Assembly (NCBI GenBank): GCA_963806535.1
Contig: CAWDYC010000004.1
Coordinates: 352,001 to 416,000, forward strand
DNA length: 64,000 nt
Direction: 5' to 3'
Origin: Candidatus Bathyarchaeota archaeon
Lineage (GTDB): Archaea; Thermoproteota; Bathyarchaeia; Bathyarchaeales; Bathycorpusculaceae
A model generated the notes under the pieces. It did no database searches, had not been told where the DNA came from, and worked only from the letters and a program-made list of their open reading frames with translations. The number at the start of each line of letters is the position of its first letter. Positions within the stretch are counted from its first letter, which is position 1. Made by a program: the position numbers and the translations under genes. Below are positions 18,456 through 32,548 of the stretch, piece after piece.

Positions 18456-19812
18456 CTCAAGCTCTACGTTTATGGCTACCTCAACCAGGTAAGATCCAGC
18501 AGGAAGCTCTAGAAAGAATGCCACCGTAACGTTGAGGCCATGTGGCTAATGAAAAAGTTGGCGCCAGACCACAAGACCATCGCTGACTTCAGAAAAGACA
18601 ACGTAGACTGCATCAAACCAGTTTTCAAAGAATTCGTTTACCTCTGCAAAAGCCTCGATCTATACGGCGCTCAACTCGTCGCCATAGACGGGACCAAATT
18701 CAAAGCTGTAAACTCAAGAAGCAACAACCTCAATGAGAAAATCGTCGCTTTGAGGCTCAAACAAACAGAGGAAAAGATAGCAGAGTATCTTAAAGAAATG
18801 GACAAGAACGATGCAAACGATTCAGAACAAGGAGAAGACTCGGCCGCTGAAGCGCTTAAGGAAAAGATAAGCCGACTAGAAGAAAAAAAGCAACAATATG
18901 GGCAAATTCAGTCTCAGATGAAGGCTACGGGCCAAAGCGAGGTTTCTCTTGTGGACCCTGATAGCCGTCTGATGAGAGTGAATAGTCAACTTCTTGAAGT
19001 CAGCTATAACATTCAAACATCTGTTGATGCCAAGCAGCATCTCATTGTTGATTATGATGTGATAAATAACTCAACTGACCATCATCAACTTACTAAGGAT
19101 GCGTTGGCAGCAAAGCAGACTTTAGGTGTTGAGACACTTGAGGTTTTGAGTGACAAGGGATTCTATGTTGAAAAAGACGTCTCAGATTGCGAGAATAATG
19201 GTATTACAGTCTTCATGCCTATACCTGCCGTTTTGAGCCCTTACAAGAGTTTGGGTGTTCCAGCGCCTGAGTTCTACAGCGACAGATTTGCTTATGATGC
19301 TGCTAAGAACGTGTATGTTTGTCCTGCAGGCGAAGAGTTGAAGTTTTGTAAGCGCGTGTACAGAGATGAGCCTTTGCGAGGCAGGGTTTACAGGACTGCT
19401 AGTTGCGCTGTCTGTGTTTTTAGGAGCAATTGTACGAGGAACAAACGTGGACGGACTATGGTTAGGTCTGAGTATGATGGTGCAGTTGAGCGTCTAAGGG
19501 TTAGGTTGAAGGGTCTTGATGGGCGAGATAAGCTTCGTTTGAGGCGGATGCTAGTGGAGCATCCGTTTGGGACCATGAAGCGGGCTTTCAATCAGGGATA
19601 TTTGCTCATGAAGGGTCTTAGGAAGGTTAAGGGCGAGGTTGGATTTACTATGCTTGCTTACAACATGCGACGGGCTATCAATATTCTTGGAGTTGGTTTG
19701 CTGATGGGCTTGATTAAGGCGTAGAAAAGAGAAAACAAGTAATAATAATCGTTGGCAAGAGCTTGAGTTCCAGATATTCTTAGGCTTTAACTCTGAGTTT
19801 TGACACAGTCTG
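18456..19812 (+). mobile_element. IS1182-family element, 5'-truncated; transposase has an in-frame TAG at 18510 (intact stretch 18540-19724)
   Basis: LKLYVYGYLNQVRSSRKL, WLMKKLAPDHKTIADFR, IDGTKFKA, DPDSRLM, YNIQ, DKGFY, YVCPAG, VEHPFGTMK, AYNMRR; right end GAGTTTTGACACAGTCT (19795-19811). Confidence 0.9.
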
Positions 19813-19832
19813 AAATAGGGGCGGAACCAATA

Positions 19833-19858
19833 GCGGGCTCGGTGGGATTTGAACCCAC
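19833..19858 (-). other. tRNA 3' fragment (T-arm plus acceptor strand), att-like
   Basis: Reverse complement GTGGGTTCAAATCCCACCGAGCCCGC; no 5' half nearby. Confidence 0.75.
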
Positions 19859-19917
19859 TAACTATATCTTATTCTTTTAAACTTGAGATGGAGTTTAGCA
19901 AGCCTTAAATTAAGAAA

Positions 19918-20550
19918 ATGAGATTTCTAGCCATGCACTTTGGCAATGGCAAAATTGCGGGTTTGCTGTTTTCCATTGGCGTGGTTCAGGTTATTCTTTT
20001 TCAGGTCGTTTGCGAAACGGTTTATTCAGGTTACAATGTAGGAAAGCAGGCTATAAGTGACTTGGGCAATTGGGGTTTAGCTGGAAGTTTTGCGGCAGTT
20101 TTCAATATTTCAGCTGTTTTGTTTGGTCTGTTCATAGTGACAGGAGCTTATTTCGTTTGGCAAGGATTAAGAAACAGACTTTTCGTCTCTCTGTTGGCTT
20201 TGGCAGGTGTGTGTAACATAGGAGTAGGCACAATTGCGGAAGACATTTCTCCGTCCACGCATGGCCTCATTTACTTGATTATGTCTGTTTCTTGGGCAGT
20301 TGCTGCAATATTGTCATATAAGTTGGAAAAATCCCCTTTCTCAATTGTGTCCATTGGCTTAGGTTCTGTTTCGCTTGTAATGTTCATTTTCTCCTTGTTA
20401 GGAAAATATGTAAGTTCAAGTCTCATTTTTGGCTTTGGCTTAGGCGGTATCGAGCGCTTGACCATTTACCCATTGTGGCTTTGGACACTTGGTTTTGGAG
20501 CCTACATAATGGGAGCATCTAGCACTGTAGCTCCAACCAGCAAAACATAG
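19918..20550 (+). CDS. DUF998-like membrane protein
   Basis: YNVGKQAISDLG, FN, THG, GGIERL..YP pattern with about 6 TM helices. Confidence 0.75.
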   Translation: MRFLAMHFGNGKIAGLLFSIGVVQVILFQVVCETVYSGYNVGKQAISDLGNWGLAGSFAAVFNISAVLFGLFIVTGAYFVWQGLRNRLFVSLLALAGVCNIGVGTIAEDISPSTHGLIYLIMSVSWAVAAILSYKLEKSPFSIVSIGLGSVSLVMFIFSLLGKYVSSSLIFGFGLGGIERLTIYPLWLWTLGFGAYIMGASSTVAPTSKT

Positions 20551-20765
20551 AATCAACGCAAACTAGGATTACATATCGTGGTGCAGGGGGTTAGGTTTAC
20601 ATTTCACGTTTAAATCTTGCAGAGCTGAAGAAGTGACTTATGTGTCAGATCGACCCGTTGAATAGTTGTTTATTCTAATATTTGCTCGGCATCTTGCTTA
20701 ACTTTAGCCAAATTGGAAGCTTCGCAAAAAAGGCATTCCTAACGCCACCATTCTTACACATTAGT

Positions 20766-21470
20766 TTATGGGTAGTGTGGAATGTAATAGTTTGTTTTTT
20801 TGCCTATCCAGTCGCCAAGGAAGTAGCCAACGATGTAACAGGGAATCATAGTTAATAATGCAAGAGCGCCATCGCCAATGATTCCTTTCAGCCACGCACT
20901 TACGCCTGTCATGTTCAAGGCAACCGTTAAGCCACCCCATATGATGAATCCTCCTGTTAAGAGTCCGACAAGCAGATACAGCGCTTTGTTGAGTTTTAGT
21001 AACCCTTCAGCTGAGAGTATTTCTTTTTTTATGTGCGTAATCATGTAGCCGATTCCAATGAATGCAAAAATTCCGAGAGCAAGATTGTAAAACGTAGTCG
21101 CGCCGATATAGCCTATGAAGTACAAAGCTATATTGATGGCTAAGTAAATGGGTGTAACGATGGCTTCCGCTACCCAGAATTTTCGCCACCATGCAGGTTT
21201 CTTCTTAAGGTTGTTGTCCTCTGGGAACTCCGAAAGCAATCTGGAAGCAAGTTTACCCTTTTCTGTCAGTACGTATTTTTCCTCTTCGTTTTTCGATAAG
21301 AGGTCACCTAGAACCTTGAGGTGATAATTCAGAAGTCCTGTGCTGACAACTTCCAAGCTATCCAAGAGTTCGGTGTAGGTTAGGCTGCTTTTCTCGTTTA
21401 GCAGTAGTATGATTTGTCTTCTCGTTTCATCTTTTAGAATTTTATGCAGGGAAGTTAAACCTGTGTTCAT
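20766..21470 (-). CDS. Membrane-tethered ArsR-like winged-helix regulator (family I)
   Basis: ILKDETRRQII..LTYTELL..STGLLNYHLKVL..YVLTEKG followed by 4 TM helices. Confidence 0.85.
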   Translation of the reverse strand: MNTGLTSLHKILKDETRRQIILLLNEKSSLTYTELLDSLEVVSTGLLNYHLKVLGDLLSKNEEEKYVLTEKGKLASRLLSEFPEDNNLKKKPAWWRKFWVAEAIVTPIYLAINIALYFIGYIGATTFYNLALGIFAFIGIGYMITHIKKEILSAEGLLKLNKALYLLVGLLTGGFIIWGGLTVALNMTGVSAWLKGIIGDGALALLTMIPCYIVGYFLGDWIGKKTNYYIPHYP

Positions 21471-21506
21471 AAGTGGTGATTAGGGTGGTTGGCGGATTTA
21501 GGGTTT

Positions 21507-21528
21507 TTTGATAATAATAATTGTCAAA
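21507..21528. promoter_or_regulatory. Operator TTTGAT-N10-GTCAAA
   Basis: Palindrome starting 37 nt from the regulator start; matches three other copies. Confidence 0.75.
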
Positions 21529-21602
21529 CTCAATTTAGGTTTGGTGTGCACGTGTTGATGAGTGCAAGAGCCAATGGCTTTCTCTATTTGATGTAACTAG
21601 AC

Positions 21603-21620
21603 TGTTCTGTTGATGGAACA
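21603..21620. promoter_or_regulatory. Palindrome TGTTC-N8-GAACA
   Basis: Same motif at 25791 and 26276; precedes a truncated signal-peptide ORF at 21674. Confidence 0.5.
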
Positions 21621-21724
21621 AGCCGTTCTATGACCAGAGCTAATAAACATAATCCTTACAATAATTCGCGGTGATGGCGATGAAGTTCAAATACAAACTC
21701 ATCGCAGTTGCAGTTCTTTTTATG

Positions 21725-21852
21725 AGATTGTGTAAAACTCGATTCAATTTCAGAAAAATGCTTGTTTTATATTAATAATTTTGGTAACAAGAATACTGTT
21801 TATACACATAAAAGGCAACCTTTTGGACACGATTTTAGTTTTCACACAGTCT
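21725..21852. mobile_element. 128-bp MITE-like element with IS1182-type ends
   Basis: Left AGATTGTGTAAAACTC and right AGTTTTCACACAGTCT are inverted repeats matching the IS end at 19795-19811. Confidence 0.65.
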
Positions 21853-22060
21853 GAAATGGGTTCGGAACCTCTTAAATGAGCAAATAATCTTTGCAGCTTA
21901 TGAACAAGCTGTGGGAAAAAGAGCTTGTGGAAACGCATCGCTAAAAACGTGTTGGCATTGGGCACTAACAAGTTTTACTATGGACGCTTGGGGTCAAACC
22001 GAAAAAATGTAAAGGTAAGTTACAAAGCCACTCTATGCGATTGCTAGGGAAAAGGTCTAC

Positions 22061-23641
22061 TTAATGAATTGTTTGATTCCAGTAAATTATACGCTGATAT
22101 TTGCCAGCAGTCAAAAAGCTAGGGTTATTGTAAACTATGTCAAGTTTTGATCCATATTTAGCAAGTGATGTCTGGACTGCATTCCAAACCTGCTGGGAAT
22201 TATCTGGTTGCCATATACCCCATACATAATCAGTTGGGCTTCGCAAGCTTGAGCCATAGTCACTTGGCAGAACTAGCGCATCCTGTCCTTTAACATTATT
22301 GGTTACATTGGGATTCTGAACCACATTCGTCCAAAACCTTTGGATCGCGGCGAATTGTTCATCTTGTAAAAGTCCAGTAGTGTTACTTTTTGGTGCATAG
22401 TTGAAGACTATGCCATATTCAGCTCCATCCTCGTATGTTTGTTTCAGCTCATTGTATATTTTGTCGCCAGTTTGAAGGTTAAGCGGTGATTGGCTTGCTG
22501 GCTCAATCATCACTCCCCAAGTCTTGTCTTGCATATCTGCAGCACCTCTGATTAAAGCTAAAGTTTGGGCATCGGTTTGCTGACCAAATTGTTCGGCAAA
22601 GACGGTATTGTAGCCTGCAAGGTAGTCAAACCAGTATAGACCATAATCTGAGGTGAAAAGTTTAACATCGGATTGATTACCAATTGACGATAGGGTATTT
22701 TGAAGGTTGCTTACATAGAGATTAGCTATATTAGTATCATTCAGAAGCGGATTTAGGTTCCAAACTTGTTGATATGATTGAAATTGGGAAATATTCCCTT
22801 GATTTGTTATAATCTGACCGTTTTCATCTAAAACTCTTCCGTTTGGCTCATAATTATAAAACAATGTTGCACTTGCTACGTAACAAATTGTTCCATTAGG
22901 GTAATAAATGGTTTGAGAGGGTGTTACCAGTGTTTCGCTTGTTGTTTGATTAGTCCCCGTGGAATTTCCGGTCCAAATAATTCTTCCCAAATTCATTAAA
23001 GGATATGATGTTACCGTTACTATTCCAGACGGTATATAGAAGTTGTATTGATTTGAAGTTGAATTCACTCCTGACCCTGATAATTCAGTAAATGAGATGC
23101 TATTCGTATTTCTTGCAATGATAAGGTTTGGATCAACAAATGATGAGACGCTATCAATATTTCTCTCGATGGTAATATTTTTTGTGTTATTACCGTTTAA
23201 ACCGAATGAAATAGAGTCAAACAAGTGCCCTGCTGGTTCATCGTTGAAATATACTCCAAGATAATGGCTGCCCCAACGTGACTGGGCTTCATTAAGAAAT
23301 GAATTTAAATTGTCTCCCAAGCAGTGGTCAGTATAACACAAAATTATGTTCAATCCTGAGTTAACGGCATAATTGCATATTTGCTCTGTCGCAGTAAAAT
23401 TAAGCATTAATGGCCCTGACTGTAAAACAAACAGGTTAGTGTAATTCTTAACCCTGTCAATTTGTTGTTGGGCTTCAATAACTGAACTTCCACAGTAAGT
23501 AACGCCTACATAGAACGGCTTTTTGCTTGCCATAGAAGTAGATGGTGATTTGCTGGCTTCCATAGCGCCAAATGATGACACAACAATAATGGCTATTATA
23601 GCAATGGACGCGATTAATACTAAGCGTCTCTTGTTAGCCAT
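22061..23641 (-). CDS. Secreted/membrane-anchored glycoside-hydrolase-like (TIM-barrel) protein
   Basis: N-terminal TM; FYVGVTYC, VKNYTNLFVLQSG, GVYFNDEPAG, TSDYGLYWFDY; N/S/T-rich insert. Confidence 0.65.
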   Translation of the reverse strand: MANKRRLVLIASIAIIAIIVVSSFGAMEASKSPSTSMASKKPFYVGVTYCGSSVIEAQQQIDRVKNYTNLFVLQSGPLMLNFTATEQICNYAVNSGLNIILCYTDHCLGDNLNSFLNEAQSRWGSHYLGVYFNDEPAGHLFDSISFGLNGNNTKNITIERNIDSVSSFVDPNLIIARNTNSISFTELSGSGVNSTSNQYNFYIPSGIVTVTSYPLMNLGRIIWTGNSTGTNQTTSETLVTPSQTIYYPNGTICYVASATLFYNYEPNGRVLDENGQIITNQGNISQFQSYQQVWNLNPLLNDTNIANLYVSNLQNTLSSIGNQSDVKLFTSDYGLYWFDYLAGYNTVFAEQFGQQTDAQTLALIRGAADMQDKTWGVMIEPASQSPLNLQTGDKIYNELKQTYEDGAEYGIVFNYAPKSNTTGLLQDEQFAAIQRFWTNVVQNPNVTNNVKGQDALVLPSDYGSSLRSPTDYVWGIWQPDNSQQVWNAVQTSLAKYGSKLDIVYNNPSFLTAGKYQRIIYWNQTIH

Positions 23642-24228
23642 TAAGGCATTTCTAACTTGCAATAGCAAACCTCTTCTCTTCCATTGAAGTTAGCCATTAC
23701 AACACTGTATTTATTTCTATACATTAGAACATGCCAGAAAATCTTTCGCATCTTTTAGCACAAGATACAGCATATACGCATGGTTACGAAACGATTCATA
23801 GACTGACCTTTAGGCAAAATTTCTCGACTGATAGACAGGGTATACATCTGTTCGGAAAAAGGATATTTACCCATGTTAACGGTTCTTTCGATGATAACAG
23901 CTTTAAGGTCATTCTATTAGAGCAAGCAGTAGTTTTTTGAGGGTGATGCTATATCTAATGCGCTCGATATTTAGGCGAGCAATCGCTCAAGATACTTCTC
24001 TTGTAGCCCATTTGCGGATTAGCGTGGCTGTCACTGGACACCAACAAGTTTTGTTTTAGAACCTTGGGGAGCAACAGAAAAAGAAAAGCAAATCTGATCT
24101 TTTTGAGAAGAAATAGACCTCTTAGACAGTTTGCACTCTGCCCCAGTTGACTTTCTCATCGAGAGAATGATAAGGGAAGAGAAATATGAAAAGCTCTTCA
24201 AAAAATGTGCGAAGGTAATAACGATTCA

Positions 24229-24693
24229 TCAAGTGAACCAAAAGCTAAAGTCAACATTTGTTTCCACAATCTTGGCGGGTTGAGGATAACCCCATTGAAC
24301 CATATTAACGTAAACAAGATAATAGGTTGCACCTGGAGCAAGCGTCACATTAATATAGCCAGCACTTTGCTGTCCGCTGTCATAATTGGTAGGCAAGCCA
24401 AATCCGCTCACAAAGTTAGTTGAATTTGCAACAATAACTCTTATTGTGCCTTCACCGATGACAGAGAAATTGCCTGATACGTTTATGTCAAAAGCGCCCG
24501 AGGGAATCGTAAATGGGATAAAATATTCATTGCTAACGGTGATATTCCCATTTATCAACGTGTACCCACCTGGAGCCGGAGTAGACATAGGCTTAGGAAG
24601 AGAATTCTTACTCCAAATGCAGATGCCCGTTGCAATCGATAACGCCAGAACGACTAAAAGAGCCACAATAATAATTCTTTTCATCGAAATCAC
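24229..24693 (-). CDS. Secreted beta-sandwich (GOLD-like) protein
   Basis: N-terminal TM; VSGNFSV.G..IRVIV, YDSGQ..G.INVTL, TYYLVY. Confidence 0.65.
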   Translation of the reverse strand: MISMKRIIIVALLVVLALSIATGICIWSKNSLPKPMSTPAPGGYTLINGNITVSNEYFIPFTIPSGAFDINVSGNFSVIGEGTIRVIVANSTNFVSGFGLPTNYDSGQQSAGYINVTLAPGATYYLVYVNMVQWGYPQPAKIVETNVDFSFWFT

Positions 24694-24815
24694 TCACTTC
24701 TGACCTCTAATCTAATATACCATTTCCATCTTTAGGGTACCACCAAGCTGAATATACCACGGAAAATGTTTACTTAACACTAAATTACTGAGCATTGTTT
24801 TACCAACCCATCAAC

Positions 24816-25715
24816 CTATCTTGCTTTTATTGGTTTTTTCAGTTTAAAAAATGAAGGTAAACTTGATGTTTTAGTATTCAATCTCCTTTGAAGCCGTAAT
24901 ACAATCACTGCGGAAATAACAATGACTGCAACTAGCACTCCGATTACAACTAACTGAGTGTTGTAAGACGAGGATAAGCTTGAAAGCGAGTTCGTAGCTC
25001 GTGAGCTTGAACTTGTTGATTGACTTGCCGGCACTGGTGCCCATGCGTATTGAATGCTGACATTCGAATTCGCTTCGTTAATAATCACTCCTGTTCCGTA
25101 GGGGATTATTGAGTTATCTCCAGCGCTATAGGGGAGTAGTCCGTTGCCGTTACCCCACACTGTTTCTTTGCCATCAATGTAAACGTGAACAGTTATTGGC
25201 CAAGATGAGATTGATCCATATGCAAAATCACTTTGAAAAGGCGTTGTCCAATTTGCAAGATTAAATTTCATATTGACTATCTGTTTTCCTATTCCGGTAA
25301 CGCTGTAGTTAAGCCAACCTGAAGTTAGCCATGAACCGGTATTGTTTATGTCGCCTGCGTTAGGAGTTAAGAGGCGCTCAAAACTAGTTATTGTTAAATT
25401 GGTATTACTGGTTATGTTTAGATTTGCAGTGTTAGGGCTGTCTGCAAGCAATCCTTCGTTTGGCTGGTTTAAGTGTAGATTTTCGAAAACCCATGTGTCA
25501 TTAAACAAAATCGCATTCAAGTAGTAGCCGTTTTGTGCAAAGTTGATTGTACTATTGGTTAAAGGTATTTGGAATTGGGTTGAAGTTGTAAATGCTAATG
25601 GAGTTGAAATTGCGTTAAATGAGTTGGAATTATCTCCCTTTGCAGAAAATGAATATGCTGAGACGAACGCAATTGCACATAATATTATTAACGCTAATGA
25701 GGTTTTACAGTTCAT
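24816..25715 (-). CDS. Secreted protein with a C-terminal TM anchor
   Basis: Signal peptide, many NxS/T sequons, Ser-rich linker, TM and basic tail. Confidence 0.75.
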   Translation of the reverse strand: MNCKTSLALIILCAIAFVSAYSFSAKGDNSNSFNAISTPLAFTTSTQFQIPLTNSTINFAQNGYYLNAILFNDTWVFENLHLNQPNEGLLADSPNTANLNITSNTNLTITSFERLLTPNAGDINNTGSWLTSGWLNYSVTGIGKQIVNMKFNLANWTTPFQSDFAYGSISSWPITVHVYIDGKETVWGNGNGLLPYSAGDNSIIPYGTGVIINEANSNVSIQYAWAPVPASQSTSSSSRATNSLSSLSSSYNTQLVVIGVLVAVIVISAVIVLRLQRRLNTKTSSLPSFFKLKKPIKAR

Positions 25716-25790
25716 TTACTTGTAACTCCTTAGTTTTTGAGGAATAAATCAAGGGATTGGCTGTACTTAATGTGATGCATTAGCACATTA

Positions 25791-25808
25791 TGTTCTTAAA
25801 TTAGAACA
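25791..25808. promoter_or_regulatory. Palindrome TGTTC-N8-GAACA
   Basis: TGTTCTTAAATTAGAACA upstream of 24816-25715. Confidence 0.55.
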
Positions 25809-25856
25809 CGCATTTTAAGCAAGAAAGTAATTTGTTGGCGAGCAAAAAAGTTTGCC

Positions 25857-26201
25857 TCAATCTTCTTGATTGTTTAGTTCCTTCTTGAGTTCTTTTTCGG
25901 AAAACAATACTCTCACTGCAATTACGCCAACTAATAGAGCCAGTACGAAAAACAAAATTGCAGGAAGAATAAAATTAGTTGGTACTGTCGTTGGTACGGC
26001 TGTAGGCGATGCAGCTGTTGAAGGCACTGGTGCCGTAGGTCCCGGAATATTTGTTGGCATCGAAGTAGGCTGAGGTGAAGATTGACCTTGAGACGCGACT
26101 TGAGATGAAAGAGGCAAATAACTAACTGCTTCTGCCATCAAAAAGGCTAATGCGACTGCAAGAATCAGACCCATCAACATTTTCTTGTTTGGCAATCTCA
26201 T
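25857..26201 (-). CDS. Small two-TM protein with a Pro/Thr/Ser-rich external loop
   Basis: TM, PTSMPTNIPGPTAPVP linker, TM; divergent from a regulator. Confidence 0.7.
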   Translation of the reverse strand: MRLPNKKMLMGLILAVALAFLMAEAVSYLPLSSQVASQGQSSPQPTSMPTNIPGPTAPVPSTAASPTAVPTTVPTNFILPAILFFVLALLVGVIAVRVLFSEKELKKELNNQED

Positions 26202-26275
26202 TAATCACAAACCTTATTGTGCACTTCAACATGAAAACATGCGGTGTGTTATTTAATTCTATATTTTCATCAAGC

Positions 26276-26293
26276 CGTTCTAATTTTCGAACA
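26276..26293. promoter_or_regulatory. Palindrome CGTTC-N8-GAACA between divergent genes
   Basis: CGTTCTAATTTTCGAACA about 50 nt upstream of the regulator at 26342. Confidence 0.55.
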
Positions 26294-26341
26294 GTAGCTG
26301 CGTAAAACTTTTGAGGATATGTCTTAAATCAGTGATGTACC

Positions 26342-26785
26342 TTGTTTGGGAATGTGAAGAGCTTGGTTGACGATGAATCAAAAGAAGTGCTGAGAGGAAC
26401 CACCCTTGAAGTTTACCGATTCCTGCTAAAAAGCAACAAGCCAGTTGGAACACGAGAACTCCAAAGAGCACTCAATTTAAGCAGCTCTTCAGTAGCCACT
26501 TATCACCTTTCCAAACTGGAAGATGCAGGTCTTCTAAAAAGAGAGGCGGGAGGCTTTACAGTTAATAAATTCCTTTTGGAAAACAGTGTTAAAATCAATC
26601 GCTTCCTAGTTCCAAGATACTTCTTTTACGCAGTTTTTGCAATTGCAGTTCTCATAATAGAATTGACAATTCTCAGGCCTACCTTATTATATCGTGAATA
26701 TGTATTTTCGACAATTGCTACTGCGATTCTCGCTTTATTCTTTTGTTATGAAACTGTTAAGACGTGGCTTAGAGGTAATTTGTAA
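26342..26785 (+). CDS. Membrane-tethered winged-helix regulator (family II)
   Basis: LRGTTLEVYRFLL..VGTRELQRALNLSSSSVATYHLSKLEDAGLL, then VPRYFFY and 2 TM helices. Confidence 0.85.
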   Translation: MFGNVKSLVDDESKEVLRGTTLEVYRFLLKSNKPVGTRELQRALNLSSSSVATYHLSKLEDAGLLKREAGGFTVNKFLLENSVKINRFLVPRYFFYAVFAIAVLIIELTILRPTLLYREYVFSTIATAILALFFCYETVKTWLRGNL

Positions 26786-26979
26786 ACTCTATTTTTCTGA
26801 TTAACCGTAAGCAATCATCTCAAATGCATTCAGATAGTTTTTTAAGATAGTTGGTATATCTTCTGCGCAGAAATTTAGGCTGGGAGCACTAGCTCCAAGC
26901 TATTCTGAGTTCACCCTTCATCAAAAGTTGGATTGATCCACTTTCCAGCATGAAACATAAACAAGCGCTTTTTTGTAGT

Positions 26980-27657
26980 TTAAACTCTCAGCATTGGAAT
27001 AACATAGTTTCTTTTTTTGCCTATCAAGTCCCCTACCCATCCGCCCAAAATCCAGCAAATAATCAAAGTTGCAGCCGCAACAAAGTCGTCACCCAAATTG
27101 CCGGTTGCACCTTGGATTTGCCAGCGAAGCCCGCTATGAAGTATCAGCAGGGTTATTATCCCCCAGAAGACAAAACCAAGGCAGAAAGCTCCAACTGCAA
27201 TAAAGAAAACCCTATTCCCAGACCGTGAAGGTCTAACTCTAATGTAGAAGGCAAAGCCAAAAGTCAGTATTGATACAATAACGACAAGAACTGTCCTCTC
27301 TAGTGGTATATTCAATGCAAAGCCAGTTACTAGAGTTAATATGACTGAAGCTACCCCAAAGAATAGCATCATTTTGAGAACTCTTCTATCTGTTACTTGA
27401 GTCTGTGTGGTTGGGAACTCTGTTAATATCCTATAAGCGAGTTGGCCTTTTTCATTGAGTACGTACTTTTCTGTCTCGTCCTTTTCCAAAAGGTCGCCTA
27501 AAACCTTCAAATGATAATTCATTGTTCCAGTGCTTACAATACCCAAGCTTTGCATCAGTTCAGTATATGACAAATTACCTTTGTCATTCAGCTTTAGGAT
27601 AATTTTTCGTCTGGTTTCATCCTTGAGAATTTTGTGCAGTGAGTCTATAGCTGACAT
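26980..27657 (-). CDS. Membrane-tethered ArsR-like winged-helix regulator (family I)
   Basis: SLHKILKDETRRKII..STGTMNYHLKVLGDLL plus 4 TM; paralog of 20766. Confidence 0.85.
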   Translation of the reverse strand: MSAIDSLHKILKDETRRKIILKLNDKGNLSYTELMQSLGIVSTGTMNYHLKVLGDLLEKDETEKYVLNEKGQLAYRILTEFPTTQTQVTDRRVLKMMLFFGVASVILTLVTGFALNIPLERTVLVVIVSILTFGFAFYIRVRPSRSGNRVFFIAVGAFCLGFVFWGIITLLILHSGLRWQIQGATGNLGDDFVAAATLIICWILGGWVGDLIGKKRNYVIPMLRV

Positions 27658-27692
27658 GTGTATCGATAAAGAGTCAATCGCTTTTTAGGTTT

Positions 27693-27714
27693 TTTGACGA
27701 TAAATCTGGTCAAA
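27693..27714. promoter_or_regulatory. Operator TTTGAC-N10-GTCAAA
   Basis: Perfect arms, 36 nt from the regulator start. Confidence 0.8.
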
Positions 27715-27732
27715 CCTTAAAAAGGGAAGAAA

Positions 27733-28599
27733 TTAGTTTTTTGAGTAGTCAACCAATGTCTTTTCCGTGTAAAGTGTTGATGCGCTGCCTATTCCAGGCG
27801 AGTTTGTTGTTGTCAATTGTGTTAGGTCGGCTTTGATTAAGCGGCAGGTTCCTTGCTCGATATACGATGTTCCGTTTAGTTGCAGGGTCATGCCGCCTGG
27901 GATTTTTATGATTGAGCTGCCATCTGAGTGAAGACTTAGAGTATTGCTTGCTACTTCGATGCGCATGGTTTTGAATGTACCTGCGGGAACAGTCAAATCT
28001 TGTAACGCTGCAAATGTTAACGTGACTTCGCCTGTTAATCCAAAGCTTGCGTTACCTGTGTTGACTGGTATTTTCCATACATCGCCAACCTTAACTGATG
28101 GTTGAGCTAAATATGCTGAAATGGTTGGGTTGCTACTTGCATTATAGAAAATAAGCGGTCCACCAGGCGCCACGAAATTATCGTAATAGCTTGCCTTGCT
28201 AAAGTTTAATGTGAGCGTTGGTAAATTCCTGAATTGTGATGAAGTTATCGTTTCATTTATCGTATAGTTCGCGCTGTTTGAGCCAATGACATCTATGGTT
28301 CCTGTTGAATTGAAGCTTTGACTATTTGTCTCTCCACTCAAGGCAAGGGATGTGTTGACTATTTGGTTTGTCACAATATTTGTGGTGTCATAGACCATGT
28401 GTTCGCCTATCTTGTAGCTTAGGCTAAGTTCCAGCGGAAAGCCTGCACCTTGAGGAATAAACAGCGCTGCCAGAACAATCAAAACTACTGCCAACCCTGC
28501 GATTGATGCATACAATTTCCGGTCATGCTTTTTGCCATTAACTTGTGGTTCACTTGATTTATAGTTGGGTGAATTGGAATTTTCTTGTCTAATCATCAA
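27733..28599 (-). CDS. Membrane-anchored extracellular beta-rich protein (paralog of 29641-30567)
   Basis: K.YASI-TM-IPQGA, Y.IGEHMVY, VKVGD, QDLTVPAGTF. Confidence 0.8.
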   Translation of the reverse strand: MMIRQENSNSPNYKSSEPQVNGKKHDRKLYASIAGLAVVLIVLAALFIPQGAGFPLELSLSYKIGEHMVYDTTNIVTNQIVNTSLALSGETNSQSFNSTGTIDVIGSNSANYTINETITSSQFRNLPTLTLNFSKASYYDNFVAPGGPLIFYNASSNPTISAYLAQPSVKVGDVWKIPVNTGNASFGLTGEVTLTFAALQDLTVPAGTFKTMRIEVASNTLSLHSDGSSIIKIPGGMTLQLNGTSYIEQGTCRLIKADLTQLTTTNSPGIGSASTLYTEKTLVDYSKN

Positions 28600-28643
28600 G
28601 ACATCTCTATGAGGTTAGTTGAATGCTTGAAGATTTAAGGTCT

Positions 28644-28665
28644 TTTGACTAAAAATTTCGTCATT
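28644..28665. promoter_or_regulatory. Operator TTTGAC-N10-GTCATT
   Basis: 45 nt from the start of 27733-28599, directly upstream of a CTTAAA TATA-like box on the minus strand. Confidence 0.7.
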
Positions 28666-28804
28666 AATAAAAGCGTAATTCTATCTTCTGGCTCTCCCCC
28701 GTAACTCTTCCTAAAAAAACCAAATTACCTATTGTTTTACGTTGAGATAAAGGAAAAAACGTTGACCTGACAATTAGATAGTTAAGACACTTTTTCGGAG
28801 TTTT

Positions 28805-29539
28805 TTAAACAGTGCTTAATCGCTTGATCAATTCTATTTTTTGGAAGCCTCTTCTTTTGCCAAGCAAATATCCAGAAATTCCGCCAGTTAAGGGTGCTAC
28901 CACGAAAGCTATAACTAAAAACCAGGAGCCCCAAATGCCAGTCAAAAGAGAGGACTTATTTAAGAACTTAGCCAGACCCACAATTAGTAAACCGCCACCG
29001 AAGAATGTGATCATACCGCCTGCCCAGGCTCCAATCATAGTGTACGTAGTTCTCATAAGCAATCGCTCTTTATCTGAACCGTGTGGAAGTCGTATTCCTT
29101 GTGCTCTATTAGCAAAATAAGTTAAAGTCATTCCTACAGCTACTGTAATTAACCCTTGAAATAACGCTAAAAAATTCATGAATCTCAAAAAATAAAGACA
29201 TAAGATGCTGATGAGAATAACTACTTGACCGAAACCAGCAGTTATCCAGAATTGGCGATATTTTGAATGTGAATTATCTACGTCTGGGAACTCTGATAAT
29301 AGTCGCCACGCCAATTTTCCTTTTTCTGTTAAAACGTATTCCCCATTCTCTTTTTTTGCAATCAGGTCGTGCATAATTTTTAAGTGATAATTCAATCTTC
29401 CTGTACTGTCAATTTTTAGTATATTCATCAAATCAGTATAGCTTAAACTGTCGTTTTCACTTAGCGCTATTATAATTTTTTTCCGCATTTGATCTTTCAA
29501 AGCTTTGTACAACGAGGTGAATCCGAGTTCAGATGCCAT
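28805..29539 (-). CDS. Membrane-tethered ArsR-like winged-helix regulator (family I)
   Basis: SLYKALKDQMRKKII..STGRLNYHLKIM..YVLTEKG plus 4 TM. Confidence 0.85.
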   Translation of the reverse strand: MASELGFTSLYKALKDQMRKKIIIALSENDSLSYTDLMNILKIDSTGRLNYHLKIMHDLIAKKENGEYVLTEKGKLAWRLLSEFPDVDNSHSKYRQFWITAGFGQVVILISILCLYFLRFMNFLALFQGLITVAVGMTLTYFANRAQGIRLPHGSDKERLLMRTTYTMIGAWAGGMITFFGGGLLIVGLAKFLNKSSLLTGIWGSWFLVIAFVVAPLTGGISGYLLGKRRGFQKIELIKRLSTV

Positions 29540-29573
29540 GCTAAATGAGCTAGCTTACTTTAATTTGAGGCTT

Positions 29574-29595
29574 TTTGACAAAATATTTAGTCAAA
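29574..29595. promoter_or_regulatory. Operator TTTGAC-N10-GTCAAA shared by a divergent pair
   Basis: 35 nt from the regulator start and about 45 nt from the start at 29641. Confidence 0.8.
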
Positions 29596-29640
29596 ACGGC
29601 TTAAAAGCTTAAACAGCCACGTTGGCTTGGAGGACAAAAC

Positions 29641-30567
29641 ATGGTTAGCAAGGTTAACAACGCTGAGTTTGAGCACCTATCAGACCAGCCAGCATTAAAA
29701 TCAAAAAAATCTAAAAGAATCGGAAAAAAATTCTACGCGTCAATAACCGCCGTAATTGCAGTTGCAGTTATTGTCGGCGCTCTTATTATTCCTCAAGGCG
29801 CCGCCTCAATATCCTTAAACGTTAATTACAATGTCGGCGAAAAGATGGTTTATACTACTTCAACATCATTGGCGTTAGCTGTCAACAATTCAACATTTCC
29901 TACCAACGGAGCCTCAGCATCTAACAACGTGACCTTCTCTGGAAGGGAAACCTTGGAAGTGCTAAGCTTCGATGGCCAATTCTACACGTTGAATAACACC
30001 GTAACTATGACAGAAGGAAATATACCCTTTACTTATTCAAGCACTGAAAAAATGAACAAAACAGGCTACTCAACGATTCTTCTCAACTTGGGGAATACCT
30101 CAGAAGAGATTCCGGATAATAGCTTCACAAGCAATCAATACCTTGCTCAACTGCTAAGCAAACCTGAAGTGAAAGTTGGTGACACAGTTACCATTCCATA
30201 CGCCTCAATAGCAGCAAACCTAACGTCAAACATCCAAGTAAGCGGAGATGTAACATTGACCTTCAAGGGATTCCAAGACCTCACTGTTCCAGCAGGCACC
30301 TACAAGGTGTTCGAAGTGGATTTAACCAGTAACAATCTAATGATGACCATGCAAACATCATTGCCCTCTTCTGAAAACTCGAACGTCTTAACACCAACCA
30401 CCGTGGCCATAAACATGGGCATGAACTATCAAACGTACATAGAATACAATACGATGCGTCAAATCCAATCTGCAATGCAAGAAACCTCTACTCTTCAGTC
30501 AACGGTATTGAACTATACAATGAGCACAACAACAAATATGACACTCAACCAAGACATCACACCATAA
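29641..30567 (+). CDS. Membrane-anchored extracellular beta-rich protein (paralog of 27733-28599)
   Basis: KKFYASI-TM-IPQGA, YNVGEKMVY, VKVGD, QDLTVPAGTY. Confidence 0.8.
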   Translation: MVSKVNNAEFEHLSDQPALKSKKSKRIGKKFYASITAVIAVAVIVGALIIPQGAASISLNVNYNVGEKMVYTTSTSLALAVNNSTFPTNGASASNNVTFSGRETLEVLSFDGQFYTLNNTVTMTEGNIPFTYSSTEKMNKTGYSTILLNLGNTSEEIPDNSFTSNQYLAQLLSKPEVKVGDTVTIPYASIAANLTSNIQVSGDVTLTFKGFQDLTVPAGTYKVFEVDLTSNNLMMTMQTSLPSSENSNVLTPTTVAINMGMNYQTYIEYNTMRQIQSAMQETSTLQSTVLNYTMSTTTNMTLNQDITP

Positions 30568-30790
30568 AAAGCCCCTTGCTTTTTTATTTTTTTTTATTCT
30601 CTATCTGCCTAAATGTGATGGCCGATGCTAACCTCCGTTAAGGCAAGTTTCCTTTCGCCTATTCCAATGGCGACATATATAGTCAATCATCGCAGCGCCA
30701 ACCAAAGGTCATGTTCAATTTGGTTTGAACAGTGTTCAAAAGTGTAGGCTTATACATCGCATCGCTGATTAAAATTGCAGGTGCCCAATC

Positions 30791-31612
30791 TTGAGTTTAC
30801 CTAAGAGAAGTTTGATTAAGCCAATTGTTGCAGCGGTAATACTTGTGCTTCTAATAAGTGGAATAGCCATCTTTGTTCTTCCAAAGTACATTTACATTAG
30901 CCCTTTTTCCTCGTTCTACGGTTCAGGCGTTGTTTACTACAAGACTGTAGAATATAGCACTGAAATTAATGGCAGTCAATTATCAACATACTTGGTTTCA
31001 GTTACATTGTTAAACGATGACCCAGTGAATCATTTCTCGGGTGGAAATACTAACGCTTACAGTGTTTCCAAGGCTGATTGGGATGTGATTGCCCCAGGAG
31101 ATGGTGTGAATATTAAGTTTTTACCTAACGCACACGCACAGTTGGTTAGCCAATTTCCAAACCCAGGCGGTACTCCTGCATGGCAATCGGTACCTGCAGA
31201 CTTGCCGCTTACTCTTAATGTAACTTCCAACAAACCTCAGTATACAATTGGAGAAATCGCCAACTTTACTGTTCGCTTAACAAACGACCCCGCTTTATCA
31301 AGCGGCATACCTTCCAATGTTTCACTTTCACTTTTCAAAGATTGCATATTTTATACCTTCTTAAACGGAAAAATAATTACTTCAAATGACAATCTGCTCC
31401 AATATGACAATCCTCTTGAAATCAAAACTGTAAGTCTTCAGCCAAACCAAGAGATTGACTATTCATTCAATTGGGACCTCACAAATATTCAACCAAGCAC
31501 TTGTTTTGTGCGAGCATATATCGGATACTATCCTCCATTACAGGGTCAGTCGATAACGCTGTTTAGGTCGATAACACTTACGGCAACAACGACGATTGAT
31601 GTGACTAAATAA
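30791..31612 (+). CDS. Membrane-anchored secreted protein with a C-terminal Ig-like domain
   Basis: N-terminal TM; TSNKPQYTIGE..VRLTN, LQPNQ..YSFNWD. Confidence 0.7.
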   Translation: MSLPKRSLIKPIVAAVILVLLISGIAIFVLPKYIYISPFSSFYGSGVVYYKTVEYSTEINGSQLSTYLVSVTLLNDDPVNHFSGGNTNAYSVSKADWDVIAPGDGVNIKFLPNAHAQLVSQFPNPGGTPAWQSVPADLPLTLNVTSNKPQYTIGEIANFTVRLTNDPALSSGIPSNVSLSLFKDCIFYTFLNGKIITSNDNLLQYDNPLEIKTVSLQPNQEIDYSFNWDLTNIQPSTCFVRAYIGYYPPLQGQSITLFRSITLTATTTIDVTK

Positions 31613-32041
31613 ATGACAGATTCAAGCACTGCGAAGAAGAGTGAGGAGGTTTTGCATGGTAAAACTCTTCTTGTCTACCGATTCATCATAGCCCAAAACG
31701 AATCTGTCGGCGTAAGAGAAATCCAGCGGAAGCTAAAGTTTAGCAGTCCCTCTCTTGCTCAGTACCACATAGACAAACTGAAGAATGAAGGTTTAATAAA
31801 AGAGGAAACAGGCGGATACATAGCGGATAAAGTCATTTTAAAGAATCTTGTACGATTTAGAAGTATGCTGATTCCCCGTTTTTTCTTCTATTTCTTGATA
31901 TTCACTTTTGGTTCCATTGTGGAGTTGACTGTACTGCTTCCACCCATCATTACGAGGGAGTATTTAGTTGCTGTTATGTTCACGTTAGCTGCTTCTGTTG
32001 CCTTTGGCATCGAGACGTATAAAAATTGGCACGGACTTTAA
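31613..32041 (+). CDS. Membrane-tethered winged-helix regulator (family II)
   Basis: LHGKTLLVYRF..VGVREIQRKLKFSSPSLAQYHIDKL, IPRFFFY, 2 TM; paralog of 26342; abuts the previous stop. Confidence 0.85.
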   Translation: MTDSSTAKKSEEVLHGKTLLVYRFIIAQNESVGVREIQRKLKFSSPSLAQYHIDKLKNEGLIKEETGGYIADKVILKNLVRFRSMLIPRFFFYFLIFTFGSIVELTVLLPPIITREYLVAVMFTLAASVAFGIETYKNWHGL

Positions 32042-32548
32042 CCACTTTGGTCATCTGCTTGAATTTCAAAATTTTGATTTTCAAACAAATTTTTGGGAAA
32101 AGGGCTAACTAAGAGCTAAAATCTGTTTTGGCTATTGTGTCGGTTGCTGTTTTACCCCAGTTTTCTATTGCAAAGCTGGTTAGTGCCCAATGCCAGCCTC
32201 TTTTCTCTGCAATATGTTCTCCAAACTCTTTTTCAAAACGCGATTCATTCTCGGTATTCTTCAACACAATCTGAAAACGACTATCTTTAGAGTGTTTTAT
32301 TTTGACAGTATTCAAACCCGAAGCAAGTCAGGCCTCTATGAACCCATACTATTTCTGGAGCGAAACCAATTCGTTTCGGCGAGGTCTCTACTGCTTGTCT
32401 TTATTTGTACTTGAGGTCTTGAAAAAATGGCAACAAGAAAAGATTCGAACAGTAACTCCTTGGTGTAAATAATATAGTAGTATAACTTTCATTAATTGAA
32501 TCCCAATAGATGTAATTCTAAACAATTCTTGGGCATTTCCCTGACCAA

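What the first reader, a model, noticed from the sequence alone, without database searches (positions are those of the whole stretch)
20766..30567. Membrane-tethered winged-helix regulators, extracellular partners and a positionally fixed TTTGAC-N10-GTCAAA operator
Seen: three paralogs have a conserved ArsR-like wHTH and divergent 4-TM tails. The palindrome lies 35-37 nt from each regulator start (21507, 27693, 29574) and about 45 nt from both paralogous membrane-anchored TVPAGT proteins (28644; 29574 shared divergently). It sits just upstream of BRE/TATA-like sequences. Known: archaeal activators such as Ptr2 bind just upstream of BRE/TATA, and bacterial ToxR/CadC are membrane-integral transcription factors. 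Inference: an undescribed archaeal transmembrane one-component signalling system, autoregulated and paired with surface proteins, with variable TM tails setting the input.
Basis: partly seen in the sequence, partly recalled or inferred. Interest (0 to 1): 0.88.

Follow-up and report, generated by a model that had tools for sequence, protein, structure and literature searches.

The report
Membrane-anchored archaeal regulators and their operator
In an uncultured archaeon, three membrane-anchored DNA-binding proteins very probably bind a palindrome set against the promoters of their own genes and of two surface-protein genes; membrane-bound regulators are a known kind, but this family and its predicted site appear uncharacterised.

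Summary
There are three DUF7347 winged-helix + 4-TM paralogues (R1-R3) and two single-pass surface proteins (S1, S2). The palindrome, better written TTGAYWA-N6-TWRTCAA, lies 34-36 nt before each R start and 45-47 nt before each S start.

A Thr in the recognition helix goes with G at half-site position 6 (10 of 10 versus 0 of 86; 4 of 4 independent pairs, too few for significance). The wHTH is therefore very probably the binder.

The TATA box starts about 5 nt after the site, and only 3 of 112 such promoters have both an intact BRE core and an intact TATA. This favours activation, but repression stays open.

Archaeal membrane-bound regulators are known (ArnR), so this is a new variant. The scan noted this motif before in another Bathyarchaeia genome.

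The parts
20766..21470 (-). R1: DUF7347 winged-helix + 4 TM helices, 234 aa, helix STGLLNYHLK; no S gene beside it
21495..21507 (-). R1 core promoter: A-rich BRE core and non-consensus TATA (CCTAAATC), about 24 nt before the ATG (leaderless transcript inferred)
21508..21527 (.). Operator of R1, TTGACAA-N6-TTATCAA on the transcribed strand
26277..26292 (.). Different palindrome (GTTCTA-N4-TCGAAC) before T1; putative operator of the second regulator family
26342..26785 (+).
26980..27657 (-). R2: wHTH + 4 TM, 225 aa, helix STGTMNYHLK (Thr type)
27694..27713 (.). Operator of R2, TTGACCA-N6-TCGTCAA (G at position 6 in one half, Thr type)
27733..28596 (-). S1: single N-terminal TM + predicted extracellular beta-sheet domain with TVPAGT motif, 8 N-glycosylation sequons
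28645..28664 (.). Operator of S1, ATGACGA-N6-TAGTCAA (Thr type, matching neighbouring R2)
28805..29539 (-). R3: wHTH + 4 TM, 244 aa, helix STGRLNYHLK
29575..29594 (.). Operator shared by the divergent R3 and S2 promoters; a TATA-like box 5 nt from each end
29641..30567 (+). S2: single TM + open antiparallel beta half-barrel (DUF3108-like lead), 9 sequons

Best explanation
R1-R3 are membrane-anchored one-component transcription regulators. Each dimerises through its ArsR/HxlR-like winged-helix domain (inferred) and reads the 7-6-7 palindrome with its recognition helix (strongly inferred). The bound dimer touches the upstream edge of the BRE. When the four-helix membrane domain senses its cue, most likely a membrane-partitioning compound or envelope state since there is no outer domain (inferred), the dimer helps TFB/TBP assemble on a core promoter that is defective in either BRE or TATA (inferred, about 60:35 over repression). 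It switches on its own gene (positive feedback) and, where present, an adjacent surface-protein gene. In this window R2-S1 (Thr/G type) and R3-S2 form two partly separate circuits, and R1 regulates only itself. Confidence in the operator step alone is about 0.9; the number given is for the whole chain including activation.
For: Site before 96 of 104 R-subfamily genes, 80 of the 96 within a 10-nt band; control 34 of 1,712 upstream regions and 0 of 13 distant DUF7347 genes. For 5 of the 8 R genes without it, the site lies before a secreted-protein gene further upstream in the same locus. Thr after TG goes with G at position 6: 10 of 10 versus 0 of 86; 4 of 4 independent pairs. Tandem paralogues in one locus each carry the matching site (L162, L163, L174). 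Distant soluble relatives from another part of the phylum show their own 7-6-7 palindromes, 13 of 18 Thr-type with G at 6, judged by eye. Of 29 S genes found by an S search, 13 have the site and 12 of these have an R gene within about 1.5 kb; 0 of 16 without the site do. The TATA starts 4-6 nt after the site in 93 of 96 promoters. Both BRE core and TATA are intact in 3 of 112 promoters, against 14 of 39 tRNA upstream regions. Weak-BRE or weak-TATA activation has precedent (PMC5937170, PMC5512572).
Against: No binding or expression data exist. The Thr/G test cannot reach p<0.05 (p=0.125), and the parallel Asn/T rule (32 of 33 versus 5 of 63) fails once ancestry is removed: 1 pair the same way, 1 opposite, 1 no change. 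A matrix score rates R self-promoters like tRNA promoters (median 7.5 versus 7.9), so 'weak' depends on the measure. The promoters are related, not independent. The last two bases of the site lie inside the BRE, which would also suit occlusion. The closest solved folds are mostly repressors (SmtB, PagR, CadC, QsrR).
Confidence: 0.55

Rival explanations
1. Same operator and binder, but R is a repressor: the dimer occludes the BRE so TFB cannot bind, and a membrane signal (conformational change or cleavage) releases it, de-repressing R and S.
For: The site overlaps the distal BRE by about 2 bp. One site can cover two divergent promoters (29575-29594). The nearest folds are ArsR/HxlR repressors. 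Self-promoters score like tRNA promoters. Repressors bound within the promoter hinder TFB/TBP (PMC5937170 passage).
Against: Spacing is held at 4-6 nt in 93 of 96 promoters, and 109 of 112 promoters lack one intact core element; occlusion alone needs neither. No protease family was named among the 17 neighbour proteins scanned in Pfam (15 of the 32 most frequent clusters were not scanned).
Confidence: 0.28
2. Co-component system: S is the extracellular ligand receptor that binds the R membrane domain and passes the signal, as VtrC/ToxS do for VtrA/ToxR.
For: S is the commonest neighbour of R (13 of 78 loci) and is co-regulated. Its half-barrel resembles lipid-handling folds (lipovitellin Z 10.4, LolB Z 8.6, LolA3 Z 8.3). 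R has no outer domain of its own.
Against: 65 of 78 R loci have no S within 4 kb. S also occurs under a different operator beside an unrelated 2-TM regulator (6 of 29 S genes) or with neither operator (10 of 29). R tails next to S differ widely, including a 2-TM form (L032).
Confidence: 0.12
3. The palindrome is bound by some other factor, or is only a shared promoter relic of duplicated cassettes.
For: All genes are related by descent, and two orphan copies lie in the genome away from any R gene (C4:183808, C10:91004).
Against: The spacer varies freely while the arms are kept. The site follows the R gene rather than the S gene. A base in the arms changes with a helix residue, also between neighbouring paralogues.
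Confidence: 0.05

Closest known systems
ArnR/ArnR1 of Sulfolobus acidocaldarius (PMC6396743, passages read)
   Same: Archaeal membrane-bound one-component regulators with an N-terminal HTH that bind inverted repeats upstream of BRE/TATA and control surface-structure genes.
   Different: ArnR has HAMP and sensor domains and two C-terminal TMs, needs two TCGAC-N5-GTCGA boxes, and is phosphorylated. R has the wHTH joined directly to four TMs, one 7-6-7 site touching the BRE, and many self-regulating paralogues.
TFB-RF1 (PF1088) with PF1089 of Pyrococcus furiosus (PMC5937170, introduction and passages read)
   Same: Autoregulating activator whose palindrome lies at a conserved distance just upstream of an imperfect BRE; small regulon of membrane genes; its operon partner PF1089 has four predicted TMs.
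   Different: The regulator and the 4-TM protein are separate genes; the motif is TCTG-N5-CAGA; the TATA is intact there, whereas R self-promoters have an intact BRE core and a poor TATA. Homology to R was not tested.
Transmembrane transcription regulators in general, e.g. BcrR, CadC, ToxR (PMC10269533, passages read)
   Same: DNA-binding domain plus TM region in one chain. BcrR (HTH + four TMs without an outer domain; architecture recalled, only its table entry was seen) is the closest layout.
   Different: Bacterial RNA polymerase context and other HTH classes; ArnR is the only archaeal entry in the part of that paper's table that I saw.
VtrA/VtrC and ToxR/ToxS co-component systems (PMC9214523, abstract read)
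   Same: Membrane-tethered DNA-binding protein encoded beside a single-pass protein with a beta-rich outer domain that may hold lipids.
   Different: There the pair is an obligate heterodimer with a lipocalin-like sensor. Here R has no outer domain, S is a larger open half-barrel, and most R genes lack S.
ArsR/SmtB and HxlR winged-helix repressors
   Same: Fold of residues 1-89 (SmtB Z 12.3, rmsd 2.2, 85 aligned; PagR Z 12.2; QsrR Z 11.6).
   Different: Below NCBIfam cut-offs, no Cys in the wHTH, and fused to a membrane domain.

Membership tests
Transmembrane transcription regulators (one-component) | DNA-binding domain and at least one TM region in one chain | tested here: met
   DUF7347/HTH_5 hits; four long helices after the wHTH; hydrophobicity
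Transmembrane transcription regulators (one-component) | Binds target DNA and changes transcription from the membrane | not testable with these tools
   Only comparative support
Pfam DUF7347 (PF24038) | Score above the gathering cut-off (27.6 bits) | tested here: met
   38.8, 38.9 and 40.6 bits
ArsR/SmtB metalloregulators | NCBIfam NF033788 cut-off of 55 bits | tested here: not met
   20.6-24.8 bits
ArsR/SmtB metalloregulators | Cys-based metal site in the DNA-binding domain (definition recalled) | tested here: not met
   No Cys in the wHTH of R1-R3; the 1-2 Cys lie in TM helices
ArnR/ArnR1 | HTH-HAMP-sensor domain-two TMs | tested here: not met
   TM1 begins at residue 93, directly after the wHTH; four TMs (PMC6396743)
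ArnR/ArnR1 | Box TCGAC-N5-GTCGA | tested here: not met
   Site is TTGAYWA-N6-TWRTCAA
TFB-RF1-type activators | Palindrome at a conserved distance directly upstream of BRE/TATA | tested here: met
   TATA 4-6 nt after the site in 93 of 96 promoters
TFB-RF1-type activators | Imperfect BRE with a good TATA | tested here: inconclusive
   True for 9 of 16 S and 13 of 96 R promoters; 77 of 96 R promoters show the reverse
TFB-RF1-type activators | Motif TCTG-N5-CAGA and a separate 4-TM partner gene | tested here: not met
   Different motif; TM domain fused (PMC5937170)
TFB-RF1-type activators | Recruits TFB and stimulates transcription | not testable with these tools
   Needs in vitro transcription
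Co-component systems (VtrA/VtrC, ToxR/ToxS) | Obligate pairing of regulator and partner genes | tested here: not met
   S in 13 of 78 R loci; 16 of 29 S genes lack both the R site and a nearby R gene
Co-component systems (VtrA/VtrC, ToxR/ToxS) | Lipocalin-like sensor fold in the partner | tested here: inconclusive
   S models as an open half-barrel; best 4fvs Z 12.1, rmsd 4.7, 187 aligned
Co-component systems (VtrA/VtrC, ToxR/ToxS) | Physical heterodimer | not testable with these tools
   Needs co-purification or cross-linking
DUF3108 / DUF3108-like (for S) | Pfam match above cut-off | tested here: inconclusive
   S2 E=0.078, below cut-off; 1 of 120 listed homologues carries PF11306; Atlas lead at 0.78

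The most novel reading that the evidence does not exclude
Bathyarchaeia use an expanded, modular envelope-sensing toolkit: membrane-tethered wHTH activators with exchangeable membrane sensor modules and a readable helix-to-base code that keeps paralogous circuits apart. They recruit TFB or TBP while still in the membrane, and a lipid-cradle surface protein, shared between two unrelated regulator families, captures the hydrophobic signal and hands it to the membrane domain. That would be an archaeal, independently evolved counterpart of the ToxR/ToxS co-component systems.
Probability: 0.15. Interest if true: 0.78.

Novelty: new variant of a known kind. Interest (0 to 1): 0.5.

Why it matters
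ArnR is the only archaeal entry in the part of the census table of membrane-bound regulators that I saw, although that census counts 1,384 archaeal candidates. This family comes with a precise predicted operator, a one-residue specificity switch, and promoters that predict two activation routes (poor TATA at self-promoters, poor BRE at most S promoters). It makes directly testable how a membrane-tethered factor engages the archaeal TBP/TFB machinery, assigns a DNA target to DUF7347, and gives a first regulon for a largely uncultured archaeal class. The signal and the physiological role remain unknown.

Tried and rejected
Complex prediction of the R3 membrane domain with S2: no verdict (score 0.07, mark 0.32), which is no evidence either way.

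RNA runs: none was listed, so start sites and expression were not examined.

Asn/T recognition rule: strong in raw counts but not supported after correcting for ancestry; not claimed.

Genome-wide TATA profile from 1,363 operon heads: too noisy, so tRNA upstream regions were used instead.

Large trans regulon: not found. Only two extra intergenic sites score 20 or more; one has no clear gene downstream, and the other precedes a frameshifted copy of the 526-aa gene whose window copy lacks the site.

Dedicated intramembrane protease: none named among the 17 neighbour proteins scanned; this does not exclude cleavage.

Known family for the 4-TM tail: no Pfam pass, no Atlas hit, only weak peptide-transporter matches at E about 0.004. 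The tail was not folded alone, so its fold is barely tested. No lipocalin appears among the top 50 fold matches of S, which does not exclude one.

Structured RNA: no Rfam match in 19500-32500.

Literature: DUF7347 + archaea gave 0 papers; none of the 15 papers listed in each mentions Bathyarchaeia; a BcrR search gave 0. The supplement of PMC10269533 (list of 1,384 archaeal regulators) was not opened and may list family members. Weak Shiga-toxin-B model scores for the 526-aa ORF (E 0.05-0.1, cut-off about 200 bits) were treated as chance.
Full report
SETTING. The window lies on contig C4 of a 2.95-Mb, 41% GC genome. Its closest named relatives are Bathyarchaeia: R1 is 91% identical to a protein of a Ca. 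Bathyarchaeota genome. The region is rich in small secreted and membrane-anchored proteins and transposase remnants.

OBSERVATION. R1, R2 and R3 share a winged-helix domain (54-70% identity; DUF7347 above cut-off) and diverge in the tail (19-35%). The R1 model has a wHTH at 3-81 and four long helices from residue 93, with short loops and no outer domain; its wHTH matches SmtB, PagR, CadC and QsrR at Z 11.6-12.3. S1 and S2 are 33% identical single-pass proteins with 8 and 9 N-glycosylation sequons. The site at 28644 has two mismatches.

IS THE SITE REAL? The window count alone is marginal (3 found, 0.46 expected). A matrix built from 27 sites of other genomes places the four window sites among the six best in the genome; 20 shuffles give 0-1 hits at that score against 6 real. 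I collected every gene with the helix pattern x-TG-y-[LMF]NYHLK from the first 148 loci and the window: 104 distinct genes, of which 96 have TTGAYWA-N6-TWRTCAA at my threshold of 15 of 18 points. Eighty of the 96 lie within a 10-nt band. The same score is reached by 34 of 1,712 upstream regions of the own genome, five of them being these genes. All 13 distant DUF7347 genes tested have 3 or more mismatches. For 5 of the 8 R genes without a site, it lies before a secreted-protein gene further upstream in the same locus. Of 202 relatives found in GTDB I saw the best 78 loci: mostly Bathyarchaeia, seven Nitrososphaerota, and two contigs labelled bacterial that I take to be mis-binned. R-type genes with the same site also occur in genomes outside the class (L213, L220, L261).

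WHO BINDS IT? Three results point to the wHTH. First, Thr at position y goes with G at half-site position 6 in 10 of 10 genes, against 0 of 86 with Lys, Arg or Leu. On a 64-row full-length tree all 4 independent pairs agree, but four pairs cannot reach significance (p=0.125). Where two R genes lie in tandem, each has the site type of its own helix (L162, L163, L174). S promoters next to Thr-type regulators carry the G in 5 of 6 cases; the other 12 never do. Second, distant soluble relatives with other helices have other 7-6-7 palindromes, such as TTGTGGA-N6-TCCACAA; 13 of 18 Thr-type ones show G at 6, judged by eye. Third, among 29 S genes found by an S-centred search, 13 have the site and 12 of those have an R gene within about 1.5 kb; none of the 16 without it does. 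Against this, a second apparent rule (Asn at x with TTGAT, 32 of 33 versus 5 of 63) does not survive the tree. In the window, R2 is Thr-type and both its own site and that of S1 carry the G, while R1 and R3 and their sites do not.

ACTIVATOR OR REPRESSOR? The best TATA register starts 5 nt after the site in 64 of 96 promoters and 4-6 nt in 93, about 30 nt before the R start, which fits leaderless transcripts (TATA position from PMC5512572). The A-rich flank lies only on the promoter side, so I read it as BRE rather than operator; the last two bases of the site fall inside that BRE. Using the AA at BRE -4/-3 seen in this genome's tRNA promoters and a YTTWWW TATA: at the 5-nt register 77 of 96 R promoters have BRE only, 13 TATA only, 6 neither; 9 of 16 S promoters have TATA only, 6 BRE only, 1 both. 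Allowing 4-6 nt, 3 of 112 have both, against 14 of 39 tRNA upstream regions (shuffled mean 1.6). Fixed spacing with one defective core element is the pattern described for archaeal activators that recruit TBP or TFB (PMC5937170, PMC5512572). However, a matrix score rates R promoters like tRNA promoters (7.5 versus 7.9), the promoters are related, and the nearest folds are repressors. I put activation at about 60%, repression at 35%.

WHAT IS S? The S2 ectodomain models as a long open antiparallel sheet (pLDDT 78, pTM 0.78). The best match is a Parabacteroides lipoprotein (4fvs, Z 12.1, rmsd 4.7, 187 aligned); lipovitellin, DUF1849, LmcA and LolA/LolB follow among many outer-membrane barrels at Z 8-11. 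A hydrophobic cradle is plausible, but a shared fold shows no function. S is the commonest R neighbour yet is present in only 13 of 78 loci. The two other S copies of this genome, and four in relatives, carry a different element (AGAACA-N3-TGTTCT), and 4 of these 6 lie beside a wHTH + 2-TM gene of another family. S thus looks like an output recruited by either regulator. Other genes under the R site are also secreted or membrane proteins, including rhodanese-domain and DUF996 proteins.

THE MEMBRANE DOMAIN. The same wHTH and site occur with 1 to 9 TMs and with other C-terminal domains, and the 4-TM domain occurs without a wHTH. The tail is a mobile module, consistent with a sensor, but no ligand or cleavage evidence was obtained.

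COMPARISON. The architecture is a transmembrane transcription regulator, a class with 1,384 archaeal members in a census (PMC10269533, passages) and a studied archaeal case, ArnR/ArnR1, which differs in domains and box (PMC6396743, passages). The promoter geometry resembles TFB-RF1, whose operon partner has four TMs (PMC5937170, introduction and passages); homology was not tested. The R-S layout recalls co-component systems (PMC9214523, abstract) but fails obligate pairing. My searches found no paper on DUF7347 in archaea, and none of the papers listed mentions Bathyarchaeia; the library lacks most subscription journals and no supplements were read.

VERDICT. A real, well-supported operator and small regulon of an uncharacterised family of membrane-anchored archaeal regulators. 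Binding is very likely; direction is uncertain; the signal and the role of S are unknown. New variant of a known kind; interest 0.5.

Noticed in passing
window 26342-26785 (+) and 31613-32041 (+): Second family of membrane-anchored wHTH proteins (2 TMs), seven in this genome and found in 25 of 26 genomes of the genus searched, with its own putative operator at 26277-26292.
   Followed up: partly
window 21604-21722: Tandem GTTCT/AGAAC element of the second family before a short truncated gene start (ATG at 21674) that resembles a 402-aa secreted protein at C5:123634; 13 such elements lie outside long ORFs in the genome.
   Followed up: partly
window 18540-19828 and 21837-21869: DDE transposase gene and an 88% identical 33-nt copy of its downstream end 2 kb away, suggesting insertion-sequence scars on both sides of R1.
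   Followed up: no
window 22061-23641 (-): 526-aa anchored protein with 14 sequons and no Pfam match; a 91-97% identical but frameshifted copy at C10:89260-90838 has a Thr-type R operator about 160 nt upstream, which the window copy lacks.
   Followed up: partly
window 24229-26201 (-) and 30791-31612 (+): Four further secreted or membrane-anchored proteins without a family match and without the R operator.
   Followed up: no
G000:C4:183808: Orphan Thr-type operator just downstream of a tRNA-Gln gene, with no clear gene in register.
   Followed up: partly
L223, L227, L239-L260: Soluble DUF7347 wHTH proteins of about 400-490 aa elsewhere in the phylum, many preceded by helix-specific 7-6-7 palindromes.
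   Followed up: partly
L013, L016, L017, L022, L057-L061; G000:C4:279254-279586: Stand-alone homologue of the R 4-TM tail with a Lys/Gln-rich N-terminus, in a conserved position between two same-strand housekeeping-like genes that I read from memory as a metal-transporting ATPase and a RimK-like ligase (labels recalled, not tested).
   Followed up: no
L105, L112: R genes with archaeal-type promoter and site on contigs labelled Pirellulales and Christensenellaceae; probably mis-binned archaeal contigs.
   Followed up: no
G000:C8:153577-155814: A related wHTH fused to a 745-aa protein that looks like an anaerobic ribonucleotide reductase (label recalled, not tested).
   Followed up: no
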